Positions 1-9,673 of a stretch of DNA of 17,560 nt are shown piece by piece. Both the position numbers and the translations under genes were made by a program. Below the pieces are notes generated by a model. That model was not told the origin of the DNA. It made no database searches and was given only the letters and a program-made list of their open reading frames with translations. How positions within the stretch are numbered: position 1 is the first letter of the stretch; every line of letters begins with the position of its first letter. This DNA is from a virus. Taxonomy: Duplodnaviria > Heunggongvirae > Uroviricota > Caudoviricetes. Location of the stretch: IMG/VR virus record IMGVR_UViG_2534681831_000034; one strand, 5' to 3'.

Positions 1-10
1 AACATCCTCC

Positions 11-592
11 TTACCCAGCAATAGGATTAAATCTCACCGCATCCTGCAAGTAATCCGGCGCAAGATGGGCATAAATCATCGTTGTCTGAATCTTTGCGTG
101 CCCCAGAATTTTCTGGAGCGTCAGAATATTGCCGCCGTTCATCATGAAATGACTGGCGAAGGTGTGGCGCAGCGCATGAACAGCCTGGCCGTCAGGAACA
201 TCAGGTGCGACCGTTTTGATGACATCGCGAACCAATGAATAATCCAGCGTCGGAAACACCAGTTTCCCGCCCCGTTTTTTGATCTTTTCAAACAGGCTTT
301 CAGAAATAGGAACGGTACGGTTTTTGCTGTTCTTCGTTTTTGAAAAAGTGATTCGACAATGAAGAACACGGCGCTGCTCCAGTGCCGCTACCTCGCCCCA
401 TCGCGCCCCGGTCGACAGAAGGATTTCGACGGCCAGCCGTTCATCGGGATTTTCAGCCAGTGCATCCAGCAACTGAACACATTCAGACTTACTCAGATAT
501 CCCATTTCACGCTCGTTAACCTTCATTCCTTTAAGGCCTTGAACGGGGTTATCGTTAAGAAAATGGCCGGATGAGATGAGTGCGGTAAACAT
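11..592 (-). pseudogene. int: 5'-truncated P2-type tyrosine integrase (C-terminal catalytic domain only)
   Basis: The translation carries the catalytic-domain signatures of tyrosine recombinases: TGARWGEV (box A Arg), HALRHTFASHFMMNGGNILTLQKILGH and TTMIYAHL (catalytic Tyr). The frame is open only 18 codons upstream of the first Met (in-frame stop at 647-649), and no N-terminal arm or core-binding domain is found in any frame upstream. A P2-type integrase is about 337 aa; about 190 aa are present. Confidence 0.7.
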
Positions 593-694
593 CGCGCTTA
601 ACGCCCCAATCTCTCGATTTATGGTGCTCCAAGGATTATTTGATCTTTACATCCGTGGTCGTGACAACAGAGCACGCACTACAAAACCGGAGAA

Positions 695-953
695 TGTGGA
701 TACCCTTTATTTCACAGTAGACGACTGCTACCGCGTGGACTTCACACCACACGGACTGGCGTTGCACTGCCTGACACCGCACGGCGAATCACTGCTGGCG
801 TATTACGACTCCCCGGCCTCCGTATTTGCGGCAATGCTGGCGCATCGCACTGCTGGCGGGTGTGCCTCGCTGAGTGAATACACCGCTGAATTTAACCGCC
901 TTTCCACCATCTTCTTGCAGGAGTGGCAGCGCGTGACGGGATACCAGCCATGA
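695..953 (+). CDS. hypothetical small protein, translationally coupled to the replication gene A
   Basis: ORF in the six-frame track (576-953). I prefer the GTG at 695 because it follows a GGAGA Shine-Dalgarno-like sequence, and because the 576 start would overlap the integrase remnant on the opposite strand. Its stop (TGA 951-953) overlaps the ATG of A at 950 (ATGA). No motif recognised. Confidence 0.35.
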
Positions 954-3790
954 GTGAGTTTGCATGGAGCTGGAATGAACCACGACCAGCCATTGATCCG
1001 GCCAGATTTACGGAGCACAGGCAGGAAACTGAAACCGACCTGCAACGCGCCATCCGTTACTACCTTGAGGCAGACAAAAAGGCTCTGGAAGAACAGGAAG
1101 CGAAGGAGGAAGCCTTTTTCGCACAATCCACCGTGGGTAAAAAACTCATGGCATCCCTTGAGGAAGCCGGACAGCGTGAAAAGCTGGCACAGAACATCAT
1201 CAGTAAGCGTCAGGCAACAGAACAAGACCCGGTGGCCCGTGCTTTTGCCACACTGAAGGTGCTTCCCGTTTATCTGCGTGAACCTCTGAGCCGCCACCTC
1301 TCTTTCCTGCGCAAAAAACAGGAAGCCGATCGCCAGAAAGGCAAAAAGAGCTGGCAGGCTGAACGCTACGCGCGCGGAACCCTGCGCAAAATATTCGAAC
1401 GTCTGGACCGCACCGATCACCGCTGGCTGACACCGGGTTATCGCTCCCTTGCCGGACGCGAACGCCTGGACGATTTGCTTTACCTGCCGCAGCTCAACAA
1501 ACACCAGATACAGACGCTGGCCACCATGACGGCGGCGATGTTCAGCAGCACCTTCGAAAAACTCTGCGATGGCTTTGGCGCGACTGATGGCGAACTGACC
1601 ATGGATGTAACGCTGAAGGCGTATCAGATGCTGGCCCGCATGGCGTTACACCTGCACGCCATGCCTCCACATTATGACGCACTGACAACAGACAAAGACC
1701 GGAGGAACGAACCGGACACGGAGCTGCTGCCGGGCGCAATCCTTCGCCTGACCTGTGCGGAATGGTGGAAACGCAAACTGTGGCTGTTACGTTGCGAGTG
1801 GCGGGAAGAACAACTCCGCGCCGCCTGTCTGGTTTCCAGAAAAACATCGCCCTATCTGAGTCAGGACGCGTTAAGCGAGTTTCGCGCACAGCGCGAGAAA
1901 ACACGCGATTTCCTGAAAAGTTTCATGCTGGAAAATGAAGACGGGTTCACGATTGATCTCGAGACGGTGTATTACGCGGGAGTAAGTAACCCGGTTCACC
2001 GTAAGGCAGAAATGATGGCCACCATGAAGGGACTGGAACTTCTGGCCGAAGCCCGTGGCGACAGAGCGGTGTTTCTGACCGTCACCTGCCCGTCAAAATA
2101 CCACGCAACAACGGAGAACGGTCATCCGAACCCCAAATGGAACGGGGCCACCATGCGCGACTCCAGCGATTACCTGGTTAACACGTTTTTTGCGGCGGTC
2201 CGCAAAAAACTGAACCGCGACGGCCTGCGCTGGTATGGCATCCGCACGGTGGAGCCTCACCATGACGGCACTGTGCACTGGCATATGATGGTCTTTGCAC
2301 ATCCGGACGAGATTGAAACCATCGTGTCCCACGTCTGCGATATTGCCATTCAGGAGGACCGCCACGAGCTGGGCGATGACATAACTCCGCGTTTTAAGGC
2401 GGAGTATGTCGACGGCTCAAAAGGCACACCAACCAGCTACATCGCCACCTACATCGGAAAGAACCTGGACAGCCGCGCCGTGGATGGCATCGACCCGAAA
2501 ACGGGCAAGCCACGCGTTGACCACGAAACCGGAAAATCAATGGCCGAGAGCGTGGAGCGCGCCATCGGCTGGGCGCGCCTTCACCGGGTCCGTCAGTTCC
2601 AGTTCTTTGGCATCCCCTCCCGTCAGGTGTGGCGTGAACTGCGCCGCCTTGCCAGCCAGATGGCACGCAATCCGGAAGGCCCGCAACGGCTGAAAGATGA
2701 TGCAATGGATGCGGTACTCGCTGCCGCCGATGCCGGGTGTTTTGCCACCTACATTGAAAAACAGGGCGGCGTACTTGTTCCACGCAAAGACTACCTGATT
2801 CGCACCGCCTACGACCTCGCAGATGAGCTGAATGATTACGGCGAACAGAGCGTACAGATTTACGGGATCTGGTCACCACTCATCGGGGAATCCTCCCGTG
2901 TGTGCACGCATCCGGATAACTGGAAACTGGTAAGACGTAAACCGGAAACGGAAGACAGCGCCCGCGAAAATGGTTTTGACCTTCAGGGCGGCCCTGCCGC
3001 CCCTTGGACTCGTGGCAATAACTGTCCCCGTGTACAGGAAACGGACAACAACGGGGCAGAACAGCCGGAAGAACGGCCAGCACCGTGGCCGCAGCTCCCT
3101 GACGGCGTTGAAGTGAACGAATGGATGCGCTCACTGAAACGGCACGAACGCCGGGCGCTGATGCGTTCGCTTCGTGACAAACAGGCAAAAAACAGCAGTG
3201 ATGAAATGCAGAGCTGGACACAGAGCCGCAAACAGCAGCGGCCTTTGCCTGATAACCACGAATTACTCGCTAAAGAATGGCGGGAGTCTGCCGAATCTCT
3301 CGGCCTGCATATCGGTGAACAGCAGATGCAGCACCTGCTACGGGGCGGCAGCCTGTACGTTGACGGCAGCATCATTGCACCGCAGGGATATGAAATTGTA
3401 CGCAAACCGGATACCCGCCCGTACAGCCGAATCACGCAGCTCTGGCAGCACCTGAGCCGTAATCACGGCGTAAGCAGCACGGAGATCCGCCATAACCCGG
3501 TCGCCAGCTATCTGGCACAGCTGGGGGCATCAGACCCCGAAGCCGCCGCACGCCTGGCATCCGCACTTCAGCAGGATCAGAACACCATGAAAACACCCGT
3601 TACCGTGCTTTCTGACATGCTGCGCGCCATCCGCGACGCAGAGCACGCACAGAGAATCAGTGAAACCACTGAACGCGCCAGCCGCAAAGCAGACCTGCTG
3701 CAGGGTGGCCTGACCAGTGGAAACAAAAAACAGACAGAAACGGGACTCACGAATCCCGTAAATGAGCAAAAAACGCGCAGCGATATATGA
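950..3790 (+). CDS. A: phage replication initiation endonuclease, P2 gpA family (HUH rolling-circle nickase)
   Basis: Long ORF (track 923-3790). It contains an HUH-type metal-binding motif (HWHMMVF) and a paired-tyrosine motif (YIATYIGK) typical of the P2 A / phiX174 A superfamily. The start at ATG 950 is preferred over GTG 923 because of the ATGA coupling with the upstream ORF; either is possible. The protein is about 200 aa longer at the C-terminus than P2 gpA as I remember it (761 aa). Confidence 0.8.
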   Translation: MSEFAWSWNEPRPAIDPARFTEHRQETETDLQRAIRYYLEADKKALEEQEAKEEAFFAQSTVGKKLMASLEEAGQREKLAQNIISKRQATEQDPVARAFATLKVLPVYLREPLSRHLSFLRKKQEADRQKGKKSWQAERYARGTLRKIFERLDRTDHRWLTPGYRSLAGRERLDDLLYLPQLNKHQIQTLATMTAAMFSSTFEKLCDGFGATDGELTMDVTLKAYQMLARMALHLHAMPPHYDALTTDKDRRNEPDTELLPGAILRLTCAEWWKRKLWLLRCEWREEQLRAACLVSRKTSPYLSQDALSEFRAQREKTRDFLKSFMLENEDGFTIDLETVYYAGVSNPVHRKAEMMATMKGLELLAEARGDRAVFLTVTCPSKYHATTENGHPNPKWNGATMRDSSDYLVNTFFAAVRKKLNRDGLRWYGIRTVEPHHDGTVHWHMMVFAHPDEIETIVSHVCDIAIQEDRHELGDDITPRFKAEYVDGSKGTPTSYIATYIGKNLDSRAVDGIDPKTGKPRVDHETGKSMAESVERAIGWARLHRVRQFQFFGIPSRQVWRELRRLASQMARNPEGPQRLKDDAMDAVLAAADAGCFATYIEKQGGVLVPRKDYLIRTAYDLADELNDYGEQSVQIYGIWSPLIGESSRVCTHPDNWKLVRRKPETEDSARENGFDLQGGPAAPWTRGNNCPRVQETDNNGAEQPEERPAPWPQLPDGVEVNEWMRSLKRHERRALMRSLRDKQAKNSSDEMQSWTQSRKQQRPLPDNHELLAKEWRESAESLGLHIGEQQMQHLLRGGSLYVDGSIIAPQGYEIVRKPDTRPYSRITQLWQHLSRNHGVSSTEIRHNPVASYLAQLGASDPEAAARLASALQQDQNTMKTPVTVLSDMLRAIRDAEHAQRISETTERASRKADLLQGGLTSGNKKQTETGLTNPVNEQKTRSDI

Positions 3791-3835
3791 AGCGCGCACA
3801 AAACAGGCAAAAACGGGATTTCAGAATCCCGTAAA
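3738..3835. promoter_or_regulatory. two copies of a 25-bp palindromic motif (AAACGGGA-N9-TCCCGTAAA); candidate parC centromere/operator or origin element
   Basis: Read directly: copy 1 at 3738-3762 (aaacgggactcacgaatcccgtaaa) and copy 2 at 3811-3835 (aaacgggatttcagaatcccgtaaa). They differ at 4 central positions, each has internal dyad symmetry (ACGGGA/TCCCGT), and their centres are 73 bp apart. Copy 1 lies in the last codons of A; copy 2 lies in the A-parM spacer, about 30 bp upstream of the parM start. Confidence 0.45.
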
Positions 3836-3866
3836 CGATTAATTAATCAACATAAGGAAAAGCGAC

Positions 3867-4826
3867 ATGAAAATTTGTATCGACGACGGCTCCACCAACA
3901 TCAAGCTGGCATGGACTGAGAACGGCGAACGCCGCAACGCCATCAGCCCGAACAGCTTCAAGTCGGAATGGTCTGCGCCGTTCGGTGGCACGCAGCCCGC
4001 GAACTACATGCTTGATGGCGTGCGCTATGGTTTTGATCCGGTCAGCGATCGCTTTGTCCAGACGACCGACACGCAATACCAATACAGTGATGTGAATGTC
4101 ATTGCCATTCATCACGCGCTGGTCAAATCAGGCATCACGCCACAGGAGGTGGATGTGGTTGTCACCCTGCCACTGAGCGAGTATTTCGACACAAACGCAC
4201 AGCCGGACATAGCCAACATCAACCGCAAAAAAGCGAACGTTATGCGCCCGGTGGAGTACCAGAACGGCGAAGCATTCACTATCCGTAACGTGCGGGTTAT
4301 GCCTGAATCCATTCCGGCTGGCTTTAAGGCACTGGCTGACATGAGTCCGTTTGAATCCCTGCTGATTGTGGATTTGGGCGGAACCACGCTGGATGTGGCA
4401 AAGGTTCAGGGGCAGCTGGCAGGTATCAGCCAGGTGTTTTGCGATCCACACGTAGGCGTTTCCCTGATGGCTGATGCCGTGCTGTCGGTGATGGCCACTA
4501 ACGGTATGCGTACCAGTCACCACATCGCCAATACCATTATTGAGCACCGTCACGATGAAGCCTGGCTGCGCCAGCACATTCACAATGACGCGCATTACAA
4601 CAGCCTGATGGCGGTTATTCGTGAAAAGGAGGAGACACTGAAACAACGAGTGATCCGCGCGCTGGCGGGTTTTTCCGGTTACGGGCGGGTGATGGTTGTC
4701 GGTGGAGGGGCGGAGATTGTGGCACCCGCTATCCGCGAAGCCTGCGGAGTTAATGCGACTTTCATCACGGACGGGGTGCCACATTTTGCTCTGGTTAATG
4801 GGCTGTACGCAATGAACAAGGAGTAA
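3867..4826 (+). CDS. parM: ParM/StbA-family actin-like plasmid segregation ATPase
   Basis: 319 aa with the actin-fold motifs IDDGSTNIKL (phosphate 1), DLGGTTLD (phosphate 2) and VVGGGAE (adenosine). It is collinear with plasmid R1 ParM (StbA) as I remember it. An AAGGA Shine-Dalgarno lies about 9 nt upstream of the ATG. Confidence 0.8.
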   Translation: MKICIDDGSTNIKLAWTENGERRNAISPNSFKSEWSAPFGGTQPANYMLDGVRYGFDPVSDRFVQTTDTQYQYSDVNVIAIHHALVKSGITPQEVDVVVTLPLSEYFDTNAQPDIANINRKKANVMRPVEYQNGEAFTIRNVRVMPESIPAGFKALADMSPFESLLIVDLGGTTLDVAKVQGQLAGISQVFCDPHVGVSLMADAVLSVMATNGMRTSHHIANTIIEHRHDEAWLRQHIHNDAHYNSLMAVIREKEETLKQRVIRALAGFSGYGRVMVVGGGAEIVAPAIREACGVNATFITDGVPHFALVNGLYAMNKE

Positions 4827-4830
4827 ACCA

Positions 4831-5142
4831 ATGACGACACCAACCAGAAGAATAAGTTTCTATCTGAAGCCAGCTGCCGTCAAGAACGAAGGAGAAGCAT
4901 GCGCCTGGCTGGACAGCCTTACACCAGAAGCCCGCAAAAGCGGCCAACGCGTGGCTTTTCTGGCCGGGCTGGCACTTCTGAAGACGAATCCGGCAGAGGC
5001 TTACCGACTGGCCGCATGGGCTGATGATGAGATGTTACCTGTGACACAAATCAGCTCAAAAAAGTTTGAAGCACAGTCTGCACCAGTGGCTAAGATAACC
5101 AGCCAGATGGCTGGGAATATCCGGGCGTTATTTCCTGAGTAA
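4831..5142 (+). CDS. parR: ParR/StbB-like centromere-binding adaptor
   Basis: 103 aa, starting 4 nt after the parM stop with an AAGGAG Shine-Dalgarno. The N-terminal region (RRISFYLKP...LDSLTPEARKSGQRVAFLAGLALLK) resembles the ribbon-helix-helix N-terminus of R1 ParR as remembered. Gene order parM then parR matches type II partition loci. Confidence 0.6.
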   Translation: MTTPTRRISFYLKPAAVKNEGEACAWLDSLTPEARKSGQRVAFLAGLALLKTNPAEAYRLAAWADDEMLPVTQISSKKFEAQSAPVAKITSQMAGNIRALFPE

Positions 5143-5270
5143 AAGCATCTGCGCGAAAAATGCTCACATTTATAGAAACAGTATCATTCCATTTGGCGCA
5201 CTTACTTCAATAATCGATCTGTTAAACAAATAGATTGTCTATTATCTATCGATTAAAACGATCAATTATC

Positions 5271-5299
5271 TTGACAGTAATGTGCCTTTTTGTAAGATC
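5271..5299 (+). promoter_or_regulatory. candidate sigma70 promoter (TTGACA-N16-TAAGAT)
   Basis: A perfect -35 hexamer TTGACA at 5271-5276 and a -10-like TAAGAT at 5293-5298, inside an AT-rich tract containing ATCGAT-centred inverted repeats. Predicted by eye only. Confidence 0.3.
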
Positions 5300-5347
5300 G
5301 TTCGCATTGTGAGCGACAAGATAATTGCGCGGCATTGTCCATGCAAA

Positions 5348-5490
5348 ACGCCCCAATAGCAGCAACTATTGGGGCGTAGAACTCGGTCGGACTCACTTAA
5401 CCTGATATGCGTGCCTTCCGAAGTAAATCAAAATGTGCGTCGTATATTTTATTGCTTACACGCACCTCTGTAAAGGCACGCATATTTTTC
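5348..5490 (+). promoter_or_regulatory. structured leader/attenuator-like RNA element upstream of the 5507 gene
   Basis: A perfect 12-bp stem hairpin (5348-5359 / 5366-5377, loop CAGCAA), then a perfect 13-bp inverted repeat (ATATGCGTGCCTT 5405-5417 / AAGGCACGCATAT 5473-5485) enclosing an inner GTGCGT/ACGCAC pair. The structure is followed by a T-run (5486-5489) and then the GAGG Shine-Dalgarno and GTG start of the downstream ORF. Confidence 0.4.
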
Positions 5491-5506
5491 CTATGAGGTA
5501 AATAAA

Positions 5507-5776
5507 GTGCGGGCTAAAACAGGTATTTGCAAGAACCCTCATCGTTATAACCCAACATTTCTGTCTCTCCCTGAATATCAAGGACAAGAAGGTCGGCACA
5601 AATGCGCTGCCTGTGCTTTTGAGCTAGGCATAAAAGATGCGCTTGAAGGACGCGCTATGGCTCAGAATGATTTAGTTTTAGCTAACATTCCGTTTAGCCA
5701 GGCTGGAACTGTAAGGCACAGAGATGCTTATGAAGCATATGTTCGTGGTTGGCGATTAATACACAGCAACAATTGA
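5507..5776 (+). CDS. small hypothetical protein with a putative C-x3-H...C-x2-C metal-binding motif
   Basis: 89-aa ORF with a GTG start preceded by GAGGT at about 7 nt. Cys8/His12/Cys33/Cys36 could form a zinc knuckle. It is AT-richer than the phage backbone and is followed immediately by a canonical intrinsic terminator. No family recognised. Confidence 0.5.
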   Translation: MRAKTGICKNPHRYNPTFLSLPEYQGQEGRHKCAACAFELGIKDALEGRAMAQNDLVLANIPFSQAGTVRHRDAYEAYVRGWRLIHSNN

Positions 5777-5785
5777 TATTTTTGA

Positions 5786-5808
5786 AGCGCCGATAAGGCG
5801 CTTTTTTT
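5786..5808 (+). terminator. rho-independent terminator
   Basis: GC stem AGCGCC (5786-5791) / GGCGCT (5797-5802) with loop GATAA, followed by a run of seven T (5802-5808), 10 nt after the stop of the 5507-5776 ORF. Confidence 0.7.
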
Positions 5809-6209
5809 GTTTGCACGATAGTGCACAAGTTTGCACAATTTTTTTGAACGACTTTTTGTACTTCCGGCCCGCGTGGCGGCTGGATCCGTCAAGGATCCGT
5901 ACGTGCACAAAAAACGCGTTTTTTCTACGCGCAGGTGACGGGGGAACAGCCCGCGTTTCAGGGGGGTAAACAGCATTCCCTGAACGATGTCGCAGAGACA
6001 CAACAGAATGGCCATATTTCTCACGCTGAGCATGAAAAAGGCGTGAGGGCTTTTGATTTGATGGGGTGAAAGGTAAGGCCGTCAAAATCGCACTGAGGCA
6101 GCGAGAACATACAGTCAACGCGGTGGGATTGCGTAAGAGTCTGACCGTCGATGGTGGCGATAAACTGGAAGGCGTCGTGAAATTATCTGATTGATACAGG
6201 AGCTGGAGA

Positions 6210-6238
6210 GCCGGGGCATAAATTTTTTATGCCCCGGC
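6210..6238. repeat. perfect 13-bp-stem hairpin (GCCGGGGCATAAA-TTT-TTTATGCCCCGGC)
   Basis: Read directly from the sequence. It lies about 100 bp upstream of the 6338 ORF and has no flanking U-tract on either strand outside the stem, so it is not a canonical terminator. Confidence 0.5.
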
Positions 6239-6337
6239 GAAGCAGCAGACAAGCGAAGCGCGTCAGTGATGCGGCACCTTGCCGACCACACTTCATAAGT
6301 GCAAAATACGAGCAAAGAAATCAATGGAGGCTGTTTT

Positions 6338-6862
6338 ATGGTCATTAATTACAAGCAGTTACGAGAAAAACGAGAGCAGGTAAAGGAAAGTTTTCGCCGC
6401 AATGAAGATCTGACCCCGCTTGTACACCTTGCTCAGGGAATTGTAGATGCTTATGAAATCTCTCTGGAGCTGCCATCACAGACATGGACTGATAGCGACG
6501 GTAATCGCCAGCATTACGTTTCATGCGGACTGGAAACAACTGAAGGGTTTCGCAGAATGCCTTTATCTCAGATTCCTGCCTCTACCCCCAAAGCAAGGGG
6601 CGGCAATGATGAGCGAAAACTGATTTTCAGCATTGAGACAGTGGTTGACGACACACCTGGCGAAGTCGCCTTCGTGCATACTCCTCTTTCGATCGCAATG
6701 TATAACGATGAAATACAGGTTCGCGTTAATAATAATATCGTGCCACTTAAAGAAGGTAATTCACCCTACACCACCGTTTGTGAAGCCATTCAATATTACG
6801 TTCTCTCTGAAATTGATAATCTCAAGCCTGACGGCACCCAGAAAATGGTTCAACTCTGGTAA
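6338..6862 (+). CDS. hypothetical 174-aa protein (cargo/moron gene, unknown function)
   Basis: ATG at 6338 is preceded by GGAGG at 7 nt (the track ORF begins at 6299, but that start has no ribosome-binding site). AT-richer codon composition than the flanking phage genes. It ends at a bidirectional terminator and is convergent with portal gene Q. No catalytic motif recognised. Confidence 0.55.
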   Translation: MVINYKQLREKREQVKESFRRNEDLTPLVHLAQGIVDAYEISLELPSQTWTDSDGNRQHYVSCGLETTEGFRRMPLSQIPASTPKARGGNDERKLIFSIETVVDDTPGEVAFVHTPLSIAMYNDEIQVRVNNNIVPLKEGNSPYTTVCEAIQYYVLSEIDNLKPDGTQKMVQLW

Positions 6863-6867
6863 AAAGG

Positions 6868-6893
6868 ACAGCCCCATCACGGGGCTGTTTTTT
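6868..6893. terminator. bidirectional rho-independent terminator between the convergent cargo gene and Q
   Basis: An 8-bp stem ACAGCCCC (6868-6875) / GGGGCTGT (6881-6888) with loop ATCAC, flanked by A5 on the left and T6 on the right, so a U-tract follows the stem on both strands. It overlaps the Q stop codon (6877-6879). Confidence 0.7.
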
Positions 6894-7923
6894 CATCAAG
6901 AAGAGCATAAGAATTAAAACGGATCACCTCTTCGCCAAGCCAGTCATTGATGTGCTTCATGGCCTCCATAACGGGCATCAGCTCGTTAATTGCATAAACC
7001 CGCGCGGCCTTCTCCACATCACCAAACGCACTTTTTTCGCCCGGCATCGCCCCCATCAGTTGCGGCGGAACACGGTGCGCAGCCAGCACATCATCACGGG
7101 ATGCCGCCTTAACATTCATGAACTCATCTTTTGCGGTGATCTGCTGGAACGGCAAAATTTGCACCCCCTCTTTGCCCCCGTTGGGCGCATGAATGAGCAC
7201 GTTTTTAAATGCACCACTACCACGTGCACCCTGTAATGTTTCTTTCAGGGAGTCCATGCTTTCGCGGTTTACCTGCGCTGCACCGATGTAGATGATGCAC
7301 CCGGCGTGGGATCCGTTGTCGTAATACAGTTTTCTGAACATGTCCGCCGAATGAGACAGGCTGGCCGAGAGTAATGCGCCGAGATATTCCGGCATGCCGT
7401 AGATTTCCTGGTTAATATCCGGATTCATCAGGTGGCACACTTTGCCAGGGCGAAACTGAAACGCGTCCTTGCCATCCTGCACATACCACCATGATTCAAG
7501 ATCGCTTCCGCGTCGCATGTATTTCGCCAGTGCGTGCCGTAATTTAAGCGGTTCGCCGAGCATATTGCTTCGAAGCTCAAGGTATGCGTTACCGAACACA
7601 AACCAGTCCAGCGCCAGCGCCGAGAAATCCTGCCGGGAAAGCAGCGGGTGCGGAATATAGCAGCCGAGCAATACATTGCGCTTAAAGTAAAGCGCAGACT
7701 GATGCCAGGACGTTTGCCGGGCGGCTCTTGCCAGACCGTACCAGTCCACCGGGGTTTCATACCACCGCCCGTTATCAGCACAGTACATATTGTCCAGCAA
7801 ATCATGCCCGGTCAGGCGATAAGGACCATCAAAAGTGAATGCACTGAGCGACGATTCTTTCCTGAGCGCATCAGCGAGATCAATGCGTGAACTCATGCGC
7901 ACTTTTTTATTTTTTCTGCTCAT
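6877..7923 (-). CDS. Q: portal protein, P2 gpQ family
   Basis: 348 aa, matching the length of P2 gpQ (about 344 aa) and its position immediately downstream of the terminase ATPase. Its ATG (7921-7923) overlaps the stop of the upstream gene (ATGA coupling). Confidence 0.85.
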   Translation of the reverse strand: MSRKNKKVRMSSRIDLADALRKESSLSAFTFDGPYRLTGHDLLDNMYCADNGRWYETPVDWYGLARAARQTSWHQSALYFKRNVLLGCYIPHPLLSRQDFSALALDWFVFGNAYLELRSNMLGEPLKLRHALAKYMRRGSDLESWWYVQDGKDAFQFRPGKVCHLMNPDINQEIYGMPEYLGALLSASLSHSADMFRKLYYDNGSHAGCIIYIGAAQVNRESMDSLKETLQGARGSGAFKNVLIHAPNGGKEGVQILPFQQITAKDEFMNVKAASRDDVLAAHRVPPQLMGAMPGEKSAFGDVEKAARVYAINELMPVMEAMKHINDWLGEEVIRFNSYALLDEKTAP

Positions 7924-9673
7924 CAGAACTCCATAACCGTGAAACGCTCGTTTTCTCCTTCGCCGCCAATTGGTTCGTTAATGACAGCAAGCATGGTTGC
8001 CCACGCAAGGTCGCCGTGGCTGATCCCCCTCGCGCGGTCCGTTTCGTAAGTGATAAAACCGCCCGGTGTTTTCACCTTACGCACGGCGTTAAAGGCCGCG
8101 ACCAGCTCGCGTTCGGCGCGATCGTATTCCCACCGCCCGGCACGCATTATTTGCAGCATTTTCAGTACCAGCGACCGTTTTGATGACAGCGTGAAGGTGT
8201 ACGGAATAGCAGCAGGGAAAAACCGTTTCACTATCTGATAAACAGCCTCCCCGTTCCCGCCCGTCACATCAATGCCGATGTGTTCCACGTTGTAGCGACA
8301 CGTGAACTCTTCAATGACTCTGGCCTGTTCTTCAAACTCCAGCCCCTGAACGCGTCGCGTCTCCACCGTTCGAAAACGGCCACCAGGAACAGCCGGAGGA
8401 ACCACCACAGACACAGCGCCGCTGTCGCCGTTGCCACTGCTGCCGTTTGCGTCATACCCAATCCATACCGGACGATTCCCCATCGGGCGGGGAGCAAAAG
8501 GTTTCCAGTCTTTCCAGTCGTCGTATCCGTCAACACCGCAGCCAATCAGGATATTCAGGTTAAATGCCGATTCCCCTTCGCGGACAAACTCACACATATA
8601 GAGATTGAGGAACTCGTCTTCGGTGTTTTCATCACGAATTTCGTCGATATCGGTGTGTTTCCAGCCGTGATTAACCACATCTTCCAGCGTGACAATTTGC
8701 CGCCACGTCCGGTCAGGGCAGATAAGCCCGTTATGCAGCGTATTCCAGTCCACAGAAAAACGCCGGCGTTTATGCGTGGCCTTTTTCTCGTTCCAGCGGT
8801 CGCCGTTCCAGTAGGCGTATGCCTCGTGCGTTTCGGTGGATGGCGTGGAGAAGTAGGTGCGCCGCAGTCCGCTGAGGGTTGCCATAGCGCCAGCCACCTT
8901 GCGTAGTTCAGCAAAGCGACTGACCCAGAAAAATTCATCAAAATAAAAATTGCCCGTATAGGACTGCGCCGACGCAGCAGAAGTGCCGAGAAAATGCAGC
9001 TCTGCGCCATTGGAGAGGATGATTTTATCGCCCCCTTTCAGCTCCACATCAACTTCAGCCGCAGCCTTCTGAATAATGCTTTTAAACTGGAACGCCTGAC
9101 GACGCGACGCAGACAAAAAATCTGGTTACGCTGGTAAGGTTGCGCCACATCGTCACGCAGCGCCATCAGCAGAGCTTCCTGTGCAAAATACCAGGTCGCC
9201 CCAATCTGTCGGGATTTCAGGATCATCCTGTTACGTATCCCGGCTTCCCTGCAAAGGGTCAGGGAGTCAAACCAGCCCCGCTGATGCCACTCCAGCCTGC
9301 TGATGATTTTTTCCCGCAGTGCGGAAATCTGTTCCGGCGTGAAATGATTTTTGAGTTTTTTCGCCCGGCCTTTCTTTCCTGCGGCCATCACATCCGGATG
9401 GCCATCATGCAGCTTTTTAAGCTGCCGGGTCAGCAGGTCTATTTCCTTAAAATCACCGCCTGTTTTATTCTGTTTTTCAGTAAGCTGGATGAGGCGCGCA
9501 TCGATGGACTGCGTGACACGCTGCACGGGTGGCGTTTCATCCCACTGGTCGCGTTTTTTCCACGCATAAATCGTGTTCGGGTTTATTCCCATCAGACGTG
9601 ATATTTCTGCGGGCGGATAACCCTGCCAGTAAAGTTGCCGCGCACGCTGGCGCACAAAAGCGTCCTGAATCAT
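7923..9673 (-). pseudogene. P: terminase large (ATPase) subunit, P2 gpP family, interrupted by an apparent 1-nt frameshift
   Basis: Two overlapping minus-strand ORFs (9673-9038, 211 aa, and 9116-7923, 397 aa) together span about 583 codons, close to P2 gpP (590 aa). The first ORF ends in an out-of-frame tail. The frames switch at an A6/T6 homopolymer at 9115-9120; adding one T would fuse them into one frame (..QRNQIF-LSASRRQAFQF..). Confidence 0.75.

What the first reader, a model, noticed from the sequence alone, without database searches (positions are those of the whole stretch)
3867..5142. Type II (ParM/ParR) plasmid partition module embedded in a P2-like prophage at the tin/old hotspot position
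Between replication gene A and portal gene Q, where P2 carries tin/old and related phages carry anti-phage cargo, this element encodes an actin-like ParM ATPase plus a ParR-like adaptor. P2-type phages are classically integrative, not plasmid-borne. Active partition genes here suggest one of three things: the element is maintained extrachromosomally (a P2-like phage-plasmid), it sits on a plasmid, or an actin-like filament system has been repurposed (for example for exclusion or incompatibility against plasmids, or for another phage-conflict role). GC content looks like the phage backbone, so the pair appears long-resident.
Basis: partly seen in the sequence, partly recalled or inferred. Interest (0 to 1): 0.7.

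Follow-up and report, generated by a model that had tools for sequence, protein, structure and literature searches.

The report
ParMRC partition genes in P88-like prophage
A plasmid-type DNA-segregation gene pair (actin-like ParM plus its adaptor ParR) really does sit in this P2-like prophage, but the prophage is integrated in the E. coli chromosome, about a quarter of E. coli genomes carry the same pair, and two papers have already remarked on it, so it is real and functionally untested rather than new.

Summary
ORF 3867-4826 is a full-length ParM, about 50% identical to plasmid R1 ParM, with its ATPase motifs intact. ORF 4831-5142 is a ParR/StbB adaptor.

The element is a P88-like (Xuanwuvirus, Peduoviridae) prophage in the E. 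coli O111:H8 chromosome. It lies between btuC and ihfA and is flanked by a 25-bp att repeat. This copy is defective: the integrase is truncated, the immunity region is missing and the terminase is frameshifted.

The module occurs in 1304 of 5426 complete E. coli genomes: 1450 places on chromosomes and 2 on plasmids.

ParMR is not hotspot cargo. It is a conserved backbone module just upstream of the variable A-Q hotspot. The same gene order holds in Plesiomonas, Hafnia, Serratia and Enterobacter P2-like prophages. The phage ParMs form one clade and are under strong purifying selection (dN/dS 0.01-0.11).

I identify a candidate centromere: two GGG-N10-CCC palindromes 73 bp apart, directly upstream of parM, conserved across genera.

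The most likely role is segregation or positioning of the excised, replicating circular phage genome, as SrpMRC does for ICEs and AlpAC does for prophage CGP3. Stable plasmid lysogeny is less likely.

Rousset et al. 2022 and Pfeifer et al. 2021 already noted this system and the plasmid idea. Novelty is low and the function remains untested.

The parts
3724..3838 (.). Candidate centromere/operator (parC-like). It is two 42-nt direct repeats, 3724-3765 and 3797-3838. Each holds a 20-bp palindrome ACGGGA-N8-TCCCGT, at 3740-3759 and 3813-3832, 73 bp apart. The first lies inside the 3' end of gene A. The second lies in the 76-bp A-parM spacer, 52 nt before the parM ATG.
   Evidence: Repeats were found. 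The arms are invariant across E. coli ParR alleles. The GGG-N10-CCC pair sits at the same offsets (-125..-131 and -52..-59) and spacing (72-73 bp) in Salmonella, E. albertii, Plesiomonas and Hafnia relatives, although the spacer sequence differs. In Hafnia a further ORF separates gene A from parM, yet the sites stay at these offsets from parM, so they track parM rather than A. ParR binding is inferred, not shown.
3867..4826 (+). parM: actin-like segregation ATPase, 319 aa.
   Evidence: Pfam StbA_N 3.5e-82 and ParM C-terminal domain 2.5e-67. R1 ParM (PDB 1mwk) E 3.5e-92 over residues 2-316, with nucleotide-binding motifs intact. phrog_691 'partition protein'. dN/dS 0.01-0.11 among prophage copies.
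4831..5142 (+). parR: adaptor / centromere-binding protein, 103 aa, StbB family. It starts 4 nt after the parM stop codon.
   Evidence: PF10784 9.8e-24. phrog_2515. A profile of phage ParRs aligns end to end with a profile of plasmid ParRs (hhalign 99.9%, E 1.7e-31). The N-terminal strand RRISFYLKP and the C-terminal tail N-I-R-A-L-F-P match the plasmid motifs RRK-x-FYxNP and (R/K)xNAxxxF(G/P). The linker is variable between alleles.
923..3790 (+). Gene A (rolling-circle replication endonuclease, 955 aa). It is context: same strand, 76 nt upstream of parM, with no terminator-like site on the + strand in between.
   Evidence: Pfam Phage_GPA 1.5e-129. Terminator scan. The A-parM-parR order is conserved in all phage-clade loci.
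5143..6876 (+). The real variable A-Q hotspot cargo. It is NOT part of the partition module. It is AT-rich (GC 0.42-0.50) and holds ORFs 5507-5776 (89 aa) and 6299-6862 (187 aa) of unknown function.
   Evidence: Homology with most relatives stops at 5142, or at 4885 for a different ParR allele. Composition. No Pfam or PADLOC hits; phrog_3941 and phrog_5091, both of unknown function. Other genera carry HicAB, a KAP NTPase and other genes at this position.
11..592 (-). Truncated tyrosine integrase (193 aa, catalytic domain only). It is context showing that this prophage copy is defective.
   Evidence: Pfam Phage_integrase 1.2e-20. It aligns to residues 134-323 of a 334-aa relative. There is no C/cox immunity region between it and gene A.

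Best explanation
This is a genuine type II (ParMRC) DNA-segregation cassette. It is a conserved backbone module of P88-like (Xuanwuvirus) phages and of related P2-like phages.

Proposed mechanism:
1. ParR dimers bind the two palindromes immediately upstream of parM.
2. The conserved C-terminal tail of ParR captures ParM filament ends.
3. ATP-driven ParM polymerisation pushes apart or positions copies of the circular phage genome.

The cassette follows replication gene A on the same strand with no terminator. I therefore infer that it is expressed with the early/replication programme. It would then act on the extrachromosomal, A-replicated circles after infection or excision. Its effect would be to keep the phage from being lost from a daughter cell, or mislocalised, before it lyses the cell or re-integrates. 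This is the role shown for SrpMRC in SXT/R391 ICEs and for AlpAC in prophage CGP3. I do not think it sustains a permanent plasmid prophage.

In this particular window the prophage is chromosomal and crippled. The integrase is truncated, there is no immunity region and the terminase is frameshifted. Here the intact cassette is probably stranded.

Shown: the identity of ParM and ParR, the chromosomal location, conservation, purifying selection, and the conserved repeat pair. Inferred: ParR binding to the palindromes, co-transcription with A, and the biological role.
For: Identity.

Chromosomal, att-flanked prophage. In E. coli, 1450 of 1452 places are chromosomal, in 1304 of 5426 genomes.

Conserved order A-(x)-parM-parR-[variable cargo]-portal in Plesiomonas, Hafnia, Serratia and Enterobacter prophages, with ParM 54-63% identical.

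All gpA-linked ParMs form one clade, separate from plasmid ParMs.

dN/dS is 0.01-0.11 for parM and 0.03-0.10 for the parR N-terminus.

In E. albertii the A-parMR block is 97-98% identical but is joined to a different head module (portal 30%). Replication and partition therefore travel together.

The two palindromes are conserved in position and spacing across genera. The layout of two paired sites resembles the experimentally bound srpC (PMC4489591).

There is no + strand terminator between A and parM.

Complete relatives keep Int, Cox and C, and no Rep initiator is annotated. P2-like elements recorded as plasmids that carry a plasmid-type module (KS14, shown experimentally to be a plasmid prophage; Arsenophonus paNv_UK11, a circular record) have RepB/RepA plus ParA, and paNv_UK11 has no annotated integrase.

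Precedents: SrpMRC stabilises the excised, rolling-circle-replicating form of R391. AlpAC is induced early and is needed for efficient CGP3 replication.
Against: There are no expression data. The promoter driving parMR is not identified; the sigma-70 scan finds none in the spacer. A ParR-autoregulated promoter active in lysogens cannot be excluded.

Only two candidate sites exist, far fewer than the ten iterons of R1 parC (the R1 figure is from my own knowledge, not checked here). Binding is untested.

The Serratia and Enterobacter subclades use a different repeat architecture.

A benefit of partition during a short lytic cycle is not obvious.

One complete E. coli assembly carries a whole P88-like genome as a 34,461-bp circular 'plasmid'. 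This is compatible with an episomal state.
Confidence: 0.55

Rival explanations
1. Dual-lifestyle phage-plasmid. P88-like phages can lysogenise either by integration or as a stably inherited low-copy plasmid, and ParMRC provides the plasmid partition function.
For: Pfeifer et al. 2021 picked up P88 in a phage-plasmid screen and suggested episomal and integrative states. Rousset et al. 2022 made the same suggestion. One circular 34,461-bp record, NZ_CP148288.1, is a complete P88-like genome. A Hok/Gef-family gene, of the family that includes plasmid post-segregational killing toxins, also lies inside the prophage.
Against: 1450 of 1452 E. coli places are chromosomal. Only 1 of 72,556 PLSDB plasmids is a phage-sized circle with this module.

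A P2-like phage with an integrase and no par genes (pENTAS02) is also deposited as a 32.5-kb circular plasmid. Such records can therefore simply be excised or replicating phage DNA.

No plasmid-type Rep initiator is annotated. The only replicon is the gpA rolling-circle system, which, by analogy with P2, should be off under repressor control (the repression is inference).

KS14, experimentally shown to be a plasmid prophage, has RepB plus ParA; the circular Arsenophonus record paNv_UK11 has RepA plus a ParA-type ATPase and no annotated integrase.
Confidence: 0.2
2. Conflict function. The actin-like system has been repurposed for phage exclusion, or for incompatibility against ParMRC plasmids, as befits cargo at the old/tin locus.
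For: It lies between A and Q, where P2 carries old and tin and where many defence systems sit.
Against: No PADLOC model hits either protein.

The pair does not turn over. It is conserved in order across genera, and the variable cargo starts after it.

ParR keeps both functional ends of a normal adaptor.

Phage ParR is too diverged from plasmid ParRs to be found by tblastn in real plasmids. Cross-binding to plasmid parC is therefore unlikely.
Confidence: 0.05
3. Inert passenger. The pair is a plasmid-derived remnant with no current function for the phage.
For: In this window the prophage itself is defective. The cassette cannot serve a phage life cycle here. Some truncated parM variants exist in databases, for example 188-aa and 229-aa clusters.
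Against: There is strong purifying selection. The phage ParMs form one clade spanning at least six genera with conserved synteny. Motifs are intact. 1279 of 1305 E. coli records keep at least 80% of the A-parM-parR stretch.
Confidence: 0.08
4. Host-directed function in the lysogen. ParMR is expressed from the integrated prophage and acts on the chromosomal parC copy, or otherwise serves as a 'fitness factor', as listed for PhiSM.
For: The PhiSM paper lists the gene among putative fitness cargo. The module is retained intact in defective O111 prophages.
Against: There is no evidence of expression in lysogens. The O111 copies are 100% identical across the strains listed, which I read as recent common descent, so retention says little. 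A pushing force on an integrated centromere has no known benefit.
Confidence: 0.05

Closest known systems
ParMRC (parA locus; StbA/StbB) of plasmids R1/R100
   Same: ParM is about 50% identical over its full length, with the nucleotide-binding motifs conserved. ParR is homologous end to end with plasmid ParRs. The gene order is parC-parM-parR, with repeats directly upstream of parM.
   Different: It resides in an integrating P2-like phage, not a plasmid. ParR is shorter (103 aa) because the linker is contracted. The candidate centromere has two 20-bp palindromes instead of ten 11-bp iterons (the R1 figure is from my own knowledge). No promoter was recognised within it. The phage ParMs form their own clade.
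SrpMRC of SXT/R391 integrative conjugative elements (Carraro et al. 2015, PMC4489591)
   Same: It is a type II partition system in an element that normally lives integrated and replicates its excised circle by a rolling-circle nickase. Its centromere is made of a few repeats arranged as two paired sites upstream of the ParM gene. R391 stability also depends on a toxin-antitoxin system, and the P88-like prophage also carries a toxin-family (Hok/Gef) gene.
   Different: SrpM and SrpR are only distantly related to R1 ParMR, whereas this pair is close to it. The host element is an ICE, not a phage. The function of SrpMRC is demonstrated; here it is inferred.
AlpAC/alpS of Corynebacterium glutamicum prophage CGP3 (Donovan et al. 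2015, PMC4446434)
   Same: It is an actin-like protein plus a DNA-binding adaptor, encoded by an integrated prophage. The adaptor binds sites upstream of its own operon. The genes are induced early and are needed for efficient replication of the excised circular phage DNA.
   Different: Host and phage type are unrelated. The gene order is adaptor first. AlpC is a distant actin-like protein, not a close ParM relative.
P2-like elements recorded as plasmids: Burkholderia KS14 (shown to be a plasmid prophage) and Arsenophonus paNv_UK11 (circular record, lifestyle inferred)
   Same: They have P2-type morphogenesis genes, and paNv_UK11 also has gpA. Each also carries a partition system.
   Different: They use ParA-type (type I) partition together with a dedicated RepB or RepA initiator. 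paNv_UK11 has no annotated integrase, and KS14 has a serine recombinase rather than a tyrosine integrase. P88-like phages have ParM-type partition, keep a tyrosine integrase and have no annotated Rep.
Escherichia phage P88 / Xuanwuvirus (and CP-933T-type prophages of EHEC)
   Same: The window region 3700-5400 is 95-97% identical at the nucleotide level to phages 520873, 503458, P88, PhiSM and others. They have the same gene order and the same parMR annotation.
   Different: This copy is degraded. It carries a particular ParR allele and a particular downstream cargo.

Membership tests
Type II ParMRC partition system | Actin-fold ParM ATPase with both subdomains and nucleotide-binding motifs | tested here: met
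   Pfam StbA_N 3.5e-82 and ParM C-terminal domain 2.5e-67. Full-length alignment to R1 ParM structures, E 3.5e-92, with DDGSTNIK, PESIPAG, DLGGTTLD and GGGAE conserved.
Type II ParMRC partition system | Small ParR adaptor encoded immediately downstream, with an N-terminal ribbon-helix-helix DNA-binding end and a C-terminal ParM-binding tail | tested here: met
   PF10784 9.8e-24. hhalign 99.9%, E 1.7e-31, against plasmid ParRs over the full length. The N-terminal strand and C-terminal NAxxLFP-type tail are shared. The fold itself was not modelled, and there is no PDB sequence hit.
Type II ParMRC partition system | Centromere parC: iterated ParR-binding repeats upstream of parM, overlapping the operon promoter | tested here: inconclusive
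   Two conserved 20-bp palindromes lie 73 bp apart just upstream of parM. They are unique in the prophage and conserved across genera. There are only two sites, no promoter was detected, and binding is untested.
Type II ParMRC partition system | ATP-dependent filament formation and stabilisation of an unstable replicon | not testable with these tools
   This needs plasmid-loss assays, microscopy and biochemistry.
Phage-plasmid (P1, N15, KS14 type) | Prophage is an extrachromosomal replicon during lysogeny | tested here: not met
   The window lies in the chromosome between btuC and ihfA, with 25-bp att repeats. 1450 of 1452 E. coli places are chromosomal.
Phage-plasmid (P1, N15, KS14 type) | Plasmid-type replication initiator for maintenance replication | tested here: not met
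   No Rep gene is annotated in complete P88-like genomes; only gpA is present. In contrast, paNv_UK11 has RepA and KS14 has RepB. Hypothetical ORFs were not all profiled.
P2 A-Q hotspot anti-phage cargo (old/tin-type) | Presence or absence varies among closely related phages, and the genes match known defence families | tested here: not met
   parMR is conserved while the sequence after 5142 varies. No PADLOC hits.
Xuanwuvirus (P88-like Peduoviridae) | High nucleotide identity and shared gene order with P88 and phage 520873 | tested here: met
   94-97% identity over 3700-5400 to Xuanwuvirus records. The gene order is the same. P2-family capsid, GPO scaffold, gpM, portal and terminase genes are present.

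The most novel reading that the evidence does not exclude
ParMRC in P88-like phages is an active phage-genome segregation or positioning machine. It would be switched on with the replication genes and would act on rolling-circle-derived monomeric circles. That would make it the first such system in a Gram-negative tailed temperate phage. It could explain how an integrative phage survives cell division during slow or aborted lytic development, or in a transient carrier state. The minimal centromere would be two GGG-N10-CCC palindromes.
Probability: 0.5. Interest if true: 0.5.

Novelty: already known. Interest (0 to 1): 0.3.

Why it matters
About a quarter of complete E. coli genomes carry this cassette, including O157:H7, O111 and ST131 strains. 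Yet nobody has tested why an integrating phage keeps a plasmid partition system under strong purifying selection.

If it segregates excised or replicating phage circles, it extends to tailed phages the 'integrative elements also partition' principle shown for ICEs.

It also offers a compact, close relative of the best-understood actin-like segregation machine, with an unusually small candidate centromere. The experiments are simple, and P88 and PhiSM are both in culture.

As a discovery from this window it adds little. The genes are correctly annotated in RefSeq and PHROGs, and the plasmid-maintenance idea is already in print.

Tried and rejected
1. ParR alleles versus binding sites. I tested whether the ParR alleles (83%, 54-56% identity) co-vary with the upstream palindromes. 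They do not. The N-terminal 24 aa and the palindrome arms are invariant, and the variation sits in the linker. The alleles therefore do not indicate distinct centromere specificities.

2. A downstream centromere. I looked in the AT-rich stretch after parR (5143-5500). It contains repeats, but it belongs to the variable cargo and is not conserved with parMR. Rejected.

3. Palindromes as terminators or RNA hairpins. They resemble terminators only on the - strand, where nothing is transcribed towards them. In Plesiomonas and Hafnia only GGG/CCC is conserved, which is too short for a stable stem. There are no Rfam hits. A protein-binding site is more likely.

4. Small 'plasmid' records. The Shigella boydii 26.7-kb record is a linear, IS1-ridden fragment. 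NZ_CP148288.1 is a complete circular phage, but a par-less P2-like phage is deposited the same way. This is weak evidence.

5. PDB sequence search with ParR: no hit.

6. Literature searches. ParM + P2-like + prophage mostly returned false word matches. The P88 paper does not mention the genes. The EHEC omics papers gave no usable expression data for the cassette.

7. Promoter. The sigma-70 scan found nothing in the A-parM spacer. A conserved ATTAATCAA element 20-28 nt before the ATG is seen in three genera. It remains unexplained.
Full report
**What is there**

The two ORFs exist exactly as reported.

ORF 3867-4826 (319 aa) matches both ParM Pfam domains over their full length: StbA_N at 3.5e-82 and PF21523 at 2.5e-67. 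It aligns end to end with the plasmid R1 ParM structure sequence (1mwk, E 3.5e-92, about 50% identity). The phosphate-binding and adenosine motifs are all present: DDGSTNIK, PESIPAG, DLGGTTLD and GGGAE.

ORF 4831-5142 (103 aa) starts 4 nt after the parM stop codon. It matches PF10784 Plasmid_stab_B at 9.8e-24.

Upstream on the same strand is replication gene A (923-3790, Phage_GPA, 1.5e-129). Downstream on the opposite strand are portal and terminase.

**Where it comes from**

The whole window is 99.97% identical to the chromosome of E. coli O111:H8 strain 8B; the only differences are four substitutions and two 1-nt indels.

The annotated locus shows a P2-like prophage of about 31.8 kb between btuC and ihfA. 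It is bounded by a perfect 25-bp direct repeat, AAAGAAAAAAGGCCGCAGAGCGGCC.

At the nucleotide level the parMR region is 94-97% identical to Escherichia phages 520873, 503458 and P88, to Citrobacter phage PhiSM and to others. These belong to genus Xuanwuvirus, family Peduoviridae.

This copy is degraded in three ways:
- The integrase ORF (11-592) covers only residues 134-323 of a 334-aa relative.
- The C/cox immunity region found in complete relatives is missing between the integrase and gene A.
- A 1-nt deletion at about 9115, relative to strain 8B, splits the large terminase.

**How common it is, and on what replicon**

The A(3')-parM-parR stretch occurs in 1304 of 5426 complete E. coli genomes. 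That is 1452 places, of which 1450 are on chromosomes and 2 on plasmids. 1279 of 1305 records keep at least 80% of the stretch.

In PLSDB only seven records match. Most are very large 'plasmids' or chromosome-sized records. One is a linear IS1-ridden fragment. One is a circular 34,461-bp record that is a complete P88-like genome with Int, Cox and C.

That single circle is weak evidence for an episomal state. A P2-like phage with an integrase and no partition genes, pENTAS02, is also deposited as a 32.5-kb circular plasmid.

P2-like elements recorded as plasmids with a plasmid-type module look different. Arsenophonus paNv_UK11 carries RepA plus a ParA-type ATPase and has no annotated integrase. 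Burkholderia KS14, shown experimentally to be a plasmid prophage, carries RepB plus ParA. P88-like genomes have no annotated Rep initiator and keep a tyrosine integrase.

**Backbone, not hotspot cargo**

In most E. coli relatives homology ends exactly at the parR stop codon (5142). In relatives with a different ParR allele it ends inside parR, at 4885.

The following 1.7 kb (5143-6876) is AT-rich. Its ORFs have no Pfam or PADLOC match. That stretch is the variable A-Q hotspot.

The closest non-Escherichia ParM homologues come from Plesiomonas (63%), Hafnia (61%), Serratia (58%) and Enterobacter (54%). All of them lie in P2-like prophages in the same order: A-(0-2 ORFs)-parM-parR-[different cargo such as HicAB or a KAP NTPase]-portal.

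A genome-wide scan sharpened this. Every ParM at or above 54% identity sits next to a gpA gene. Every ParM at or below 52% has no gpA, portal or capsid gene nearby.

In a distance tree the gpA-linked ParMs form one clade, separate from R1-type plasmid ParMs (NJ tree, no bootstrap).

In E. albertii the A-parM block is 97-98% identical to the window, but the portal is 30% and the capsid 26% identical. The replication and partition genes therefore move as a unit.

Selection is strongly purifying. dN/dS is 0.01-0.11 for parM and 0.03-0.10 for the N-terminal two thirds of parR.

**ParR anatomy**

E. coli carries several ParR alleles, from 98% down to about 55% identity. Three features are invariant:
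- the first 24 residues, which include the predicted DNA-contacting strand RRISFYLKP;
- the extreme C-terminus, N-I-(R/Q)-x-(L/F)-F-P;
- most of the helical core.

The differences concentrate in the linker.

I extracted the ORF downstream of parM from 40 loci (39 fetched loci plus the window). Plasmid and phage ParRs share the same two ends: RRK-x-FYxNP at the N-terminus and (R/K)xNAxxxF(G/P) at the C-terminus. Profile-profile comparison gives 99.9% probability and E 1.7e-31 over the full length. In R1 the C-terminal tail is the part that binds ParM (established knowledge of the R1 system, not re-tested here). The adaptor thus retains both interfaces.

**Candidate centromere**

Directly upstream of parM are two 42-nt direct repeats, 3724-3765 and 3797-3838. 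Each contains a 20-bp palindrome ACGGGA-N8-TCCCGT, at 3740-3759 and 3813-3832. The palindromes are 73 bp apart, about seven helical turns.

They are the only two matches in the window and in the whole 47.6-kb locus.

The arms are identical across E. coli ParR alleles.

A GGG-N10-CCC pair occurs at the same offsets from the parM ATG (-125 to -131 and -52 to -59) with 72-73 bp spacing in Salmonella, E. albertii, Plesiomonas and Hafnia. The spacer and flanking sequences differ between these genera. The background density is 0.15-0.5 per kb.

In Hafnia an extra ORF separates A from parM, and the sites stay with parM.

The Serratia and Enterobacter subclade has a more divergent ParR and a different long inverted repeat.

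Two paired sites resemble srpC of SXT/R391, where two 40-bp fragments, each holding a pair of 13-bp repeats, are bound by SrpR.

I read these palindromes as ParR-binding sites. This is inference. No sigma-70 promoter was detected in the spacer, and no terminator-like site lies on the + strand between A and parM.

**Most likely mechanism**

The anatomy comprises:
- an intact motor;
- an adaptor with both ends;
- a conserved repeat pair;
- tight linkage to the rolling-circle replication gene on the same strand;
- retention of integrase;
- absence of a maintenance replicon.

This anatomy fits a partition or positioning system that works on the extrachromosomal circular phage genome while the early/replication programme is on. 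It does not fit a system that sustains plasmid lysogeny.

Two experimentally studied precedents do this:
- SrpMRC stabilises the excised, rolling-circle-replicating form of ICE R391, alongside a toxin-antitoxin system.
- AlpAC of prophage CGP3 is induced early, tethers circular phage DNA to actin-like filaments and is needed for efficient replication.

The P88-like prophage also carries a Hok/Gef-family gene near its right end. This parallels the pairing of a toxin system with a partition system in R391.

I put this explanation at about 0.55. The rivals are:
- a stable dual integrative/plasmid lifestyle, about 0.2;
- an inert passenger, about 0.08;
- defence or incompatibility, about 0.05;
- a host-directed function in the lysogen, about 0.05.

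In this defective O111 copy the cassette is probably stranded whatever its normal role.

**Comparison with the literature, and novelty**

RefSeq/PGAP already annotates these genes as 'plasmid segregation protein ParM' and 'plasmid partitioning/stability family protein'. PHROGs lists them as partition proteins.

The PhiSM paper lists the gene as putative fitness cargo.

Pfeifer et al. 2021 flagged P88 in a phage-plasmid screen. [quoted passage not shown]

Rousset et al. [quoted passage not shown]

No functional study was found in the library searched.

This analysis adds five things:
- the near-exclusive chromosomal location;
- the backbone rather than cargo status of the module, and its depth across genera;
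- purifying selection;
- conservation of both ParR interfaces;
- a specific candidate centromere.

**Verdict**

The finding is real and correctly identified, but ordinary as a discovery. Novelty: already known. Interest: 0.3. The open and easily testable question is why an integrating phage needs a plasmid partition machine.

Noticed in passing
window 7923-9673 (- strand); difference at about 9115: The large terminase gene is split into two overlapping ORFs, 7923-9116 and 9038-9673. The cause is a 1-nt deletion relative to the otherwise near-identical strain 8B, where the gene is an intact 1752 nt. It is either a real frameshift in this isolate or a homopolymer sequencing error.
   Followed up: partly
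window 1-953; L003 14474-15953: The prophage is defective at its left end. The integrase is cut to its catalytic domain (193 aa, residues 134-323 of a full-length relative). The whole C/cox/early-promoter region is missing. O111 strain 11128 carries a different lesion: IS1203 inserted into gene A.
   Followed up: partly
window 5143-6876: This is the true variable hotspot cargo. It is AT-rich (GC 0.42-0.50). It holds two ORFs of unknown function (89 aa, phrog_3941; 187 aa, phrog_5091) with no Pfam or PADLOC hits. It also has a promoter-like TTGACA-16-TAAGAT at 5271-5298, a perfect 12-bp hairpin at 5348-5377, and an ORF-poor stretch at 5777-6298 with several terminator-like hairpins. It could be an uncharacterised defence or accessory system.
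   Followed up: partly
L003 45846-45986 (outside the window, inside the same prophage); also L006 1291-1431 and the end of L001: A Hok/Gef-family toxin gene sits near the right end of P88-like prophages. These integrative phages therefore carry a ParMRC cassette together with a gene of the family that includes the R1 plasmid-stability toxin Hok.
   Followed up: no
L003 14474-14498 and 46251-46275: A perfect 25-bp direct repeat, AAAGAAAAAAGGCCGCAGAGCGGCC, flanks the prophage. It is the presumed att core. It is hairpin-forming (GGCCGC-AGA-GCGGCC), lies about 20 nt from the annotated ihfA ORF (46293-46592) and may be its transcription terminator.
   Followed up: partly
window 3838-3850; L007 about 6440-6450; L008 about 7973-7983: An ATTAATCAA element 20-28 nt before the parM ATG is conserved in E. 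coli, Plesiomonas and Hafnia, although the surrounding sequence has diverged. It may be a -10-like or other regulatory element. The standard promoter scan does not recognise it.
   Followed up: no
L013 (Escherichia albertii NBRC 107761): This is a mosaic phage. gpA and ParM are 97-98% identical to the window, but the portal is only 30% and the capsid 26% identical. The replication-partition block has recombined onto a different P2-like morphogenesis module.
   Followed up: partly
L015 (Vagococcus sp. WN89Y contig) and L045 (Lachnospiraceae MAG): Assemblies labelled as Gram-positive organisms contain contigs with enterobacterial ParM. L015 has an entire P88-like A-parMR-portal region at 91-98% identity. 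These contigs are most likely contamination or mis-binning in those records.
   Followed up: no
L003 35842-36414 and 43649-45151 (outside the window): The same prophage carries further cargo. A serine O-acetyltransferase lies next to the tail-fibre genes. A 500-aa PIN-domain protein lies between a shortened gpD-like gene and ogr.
   Followed up: no
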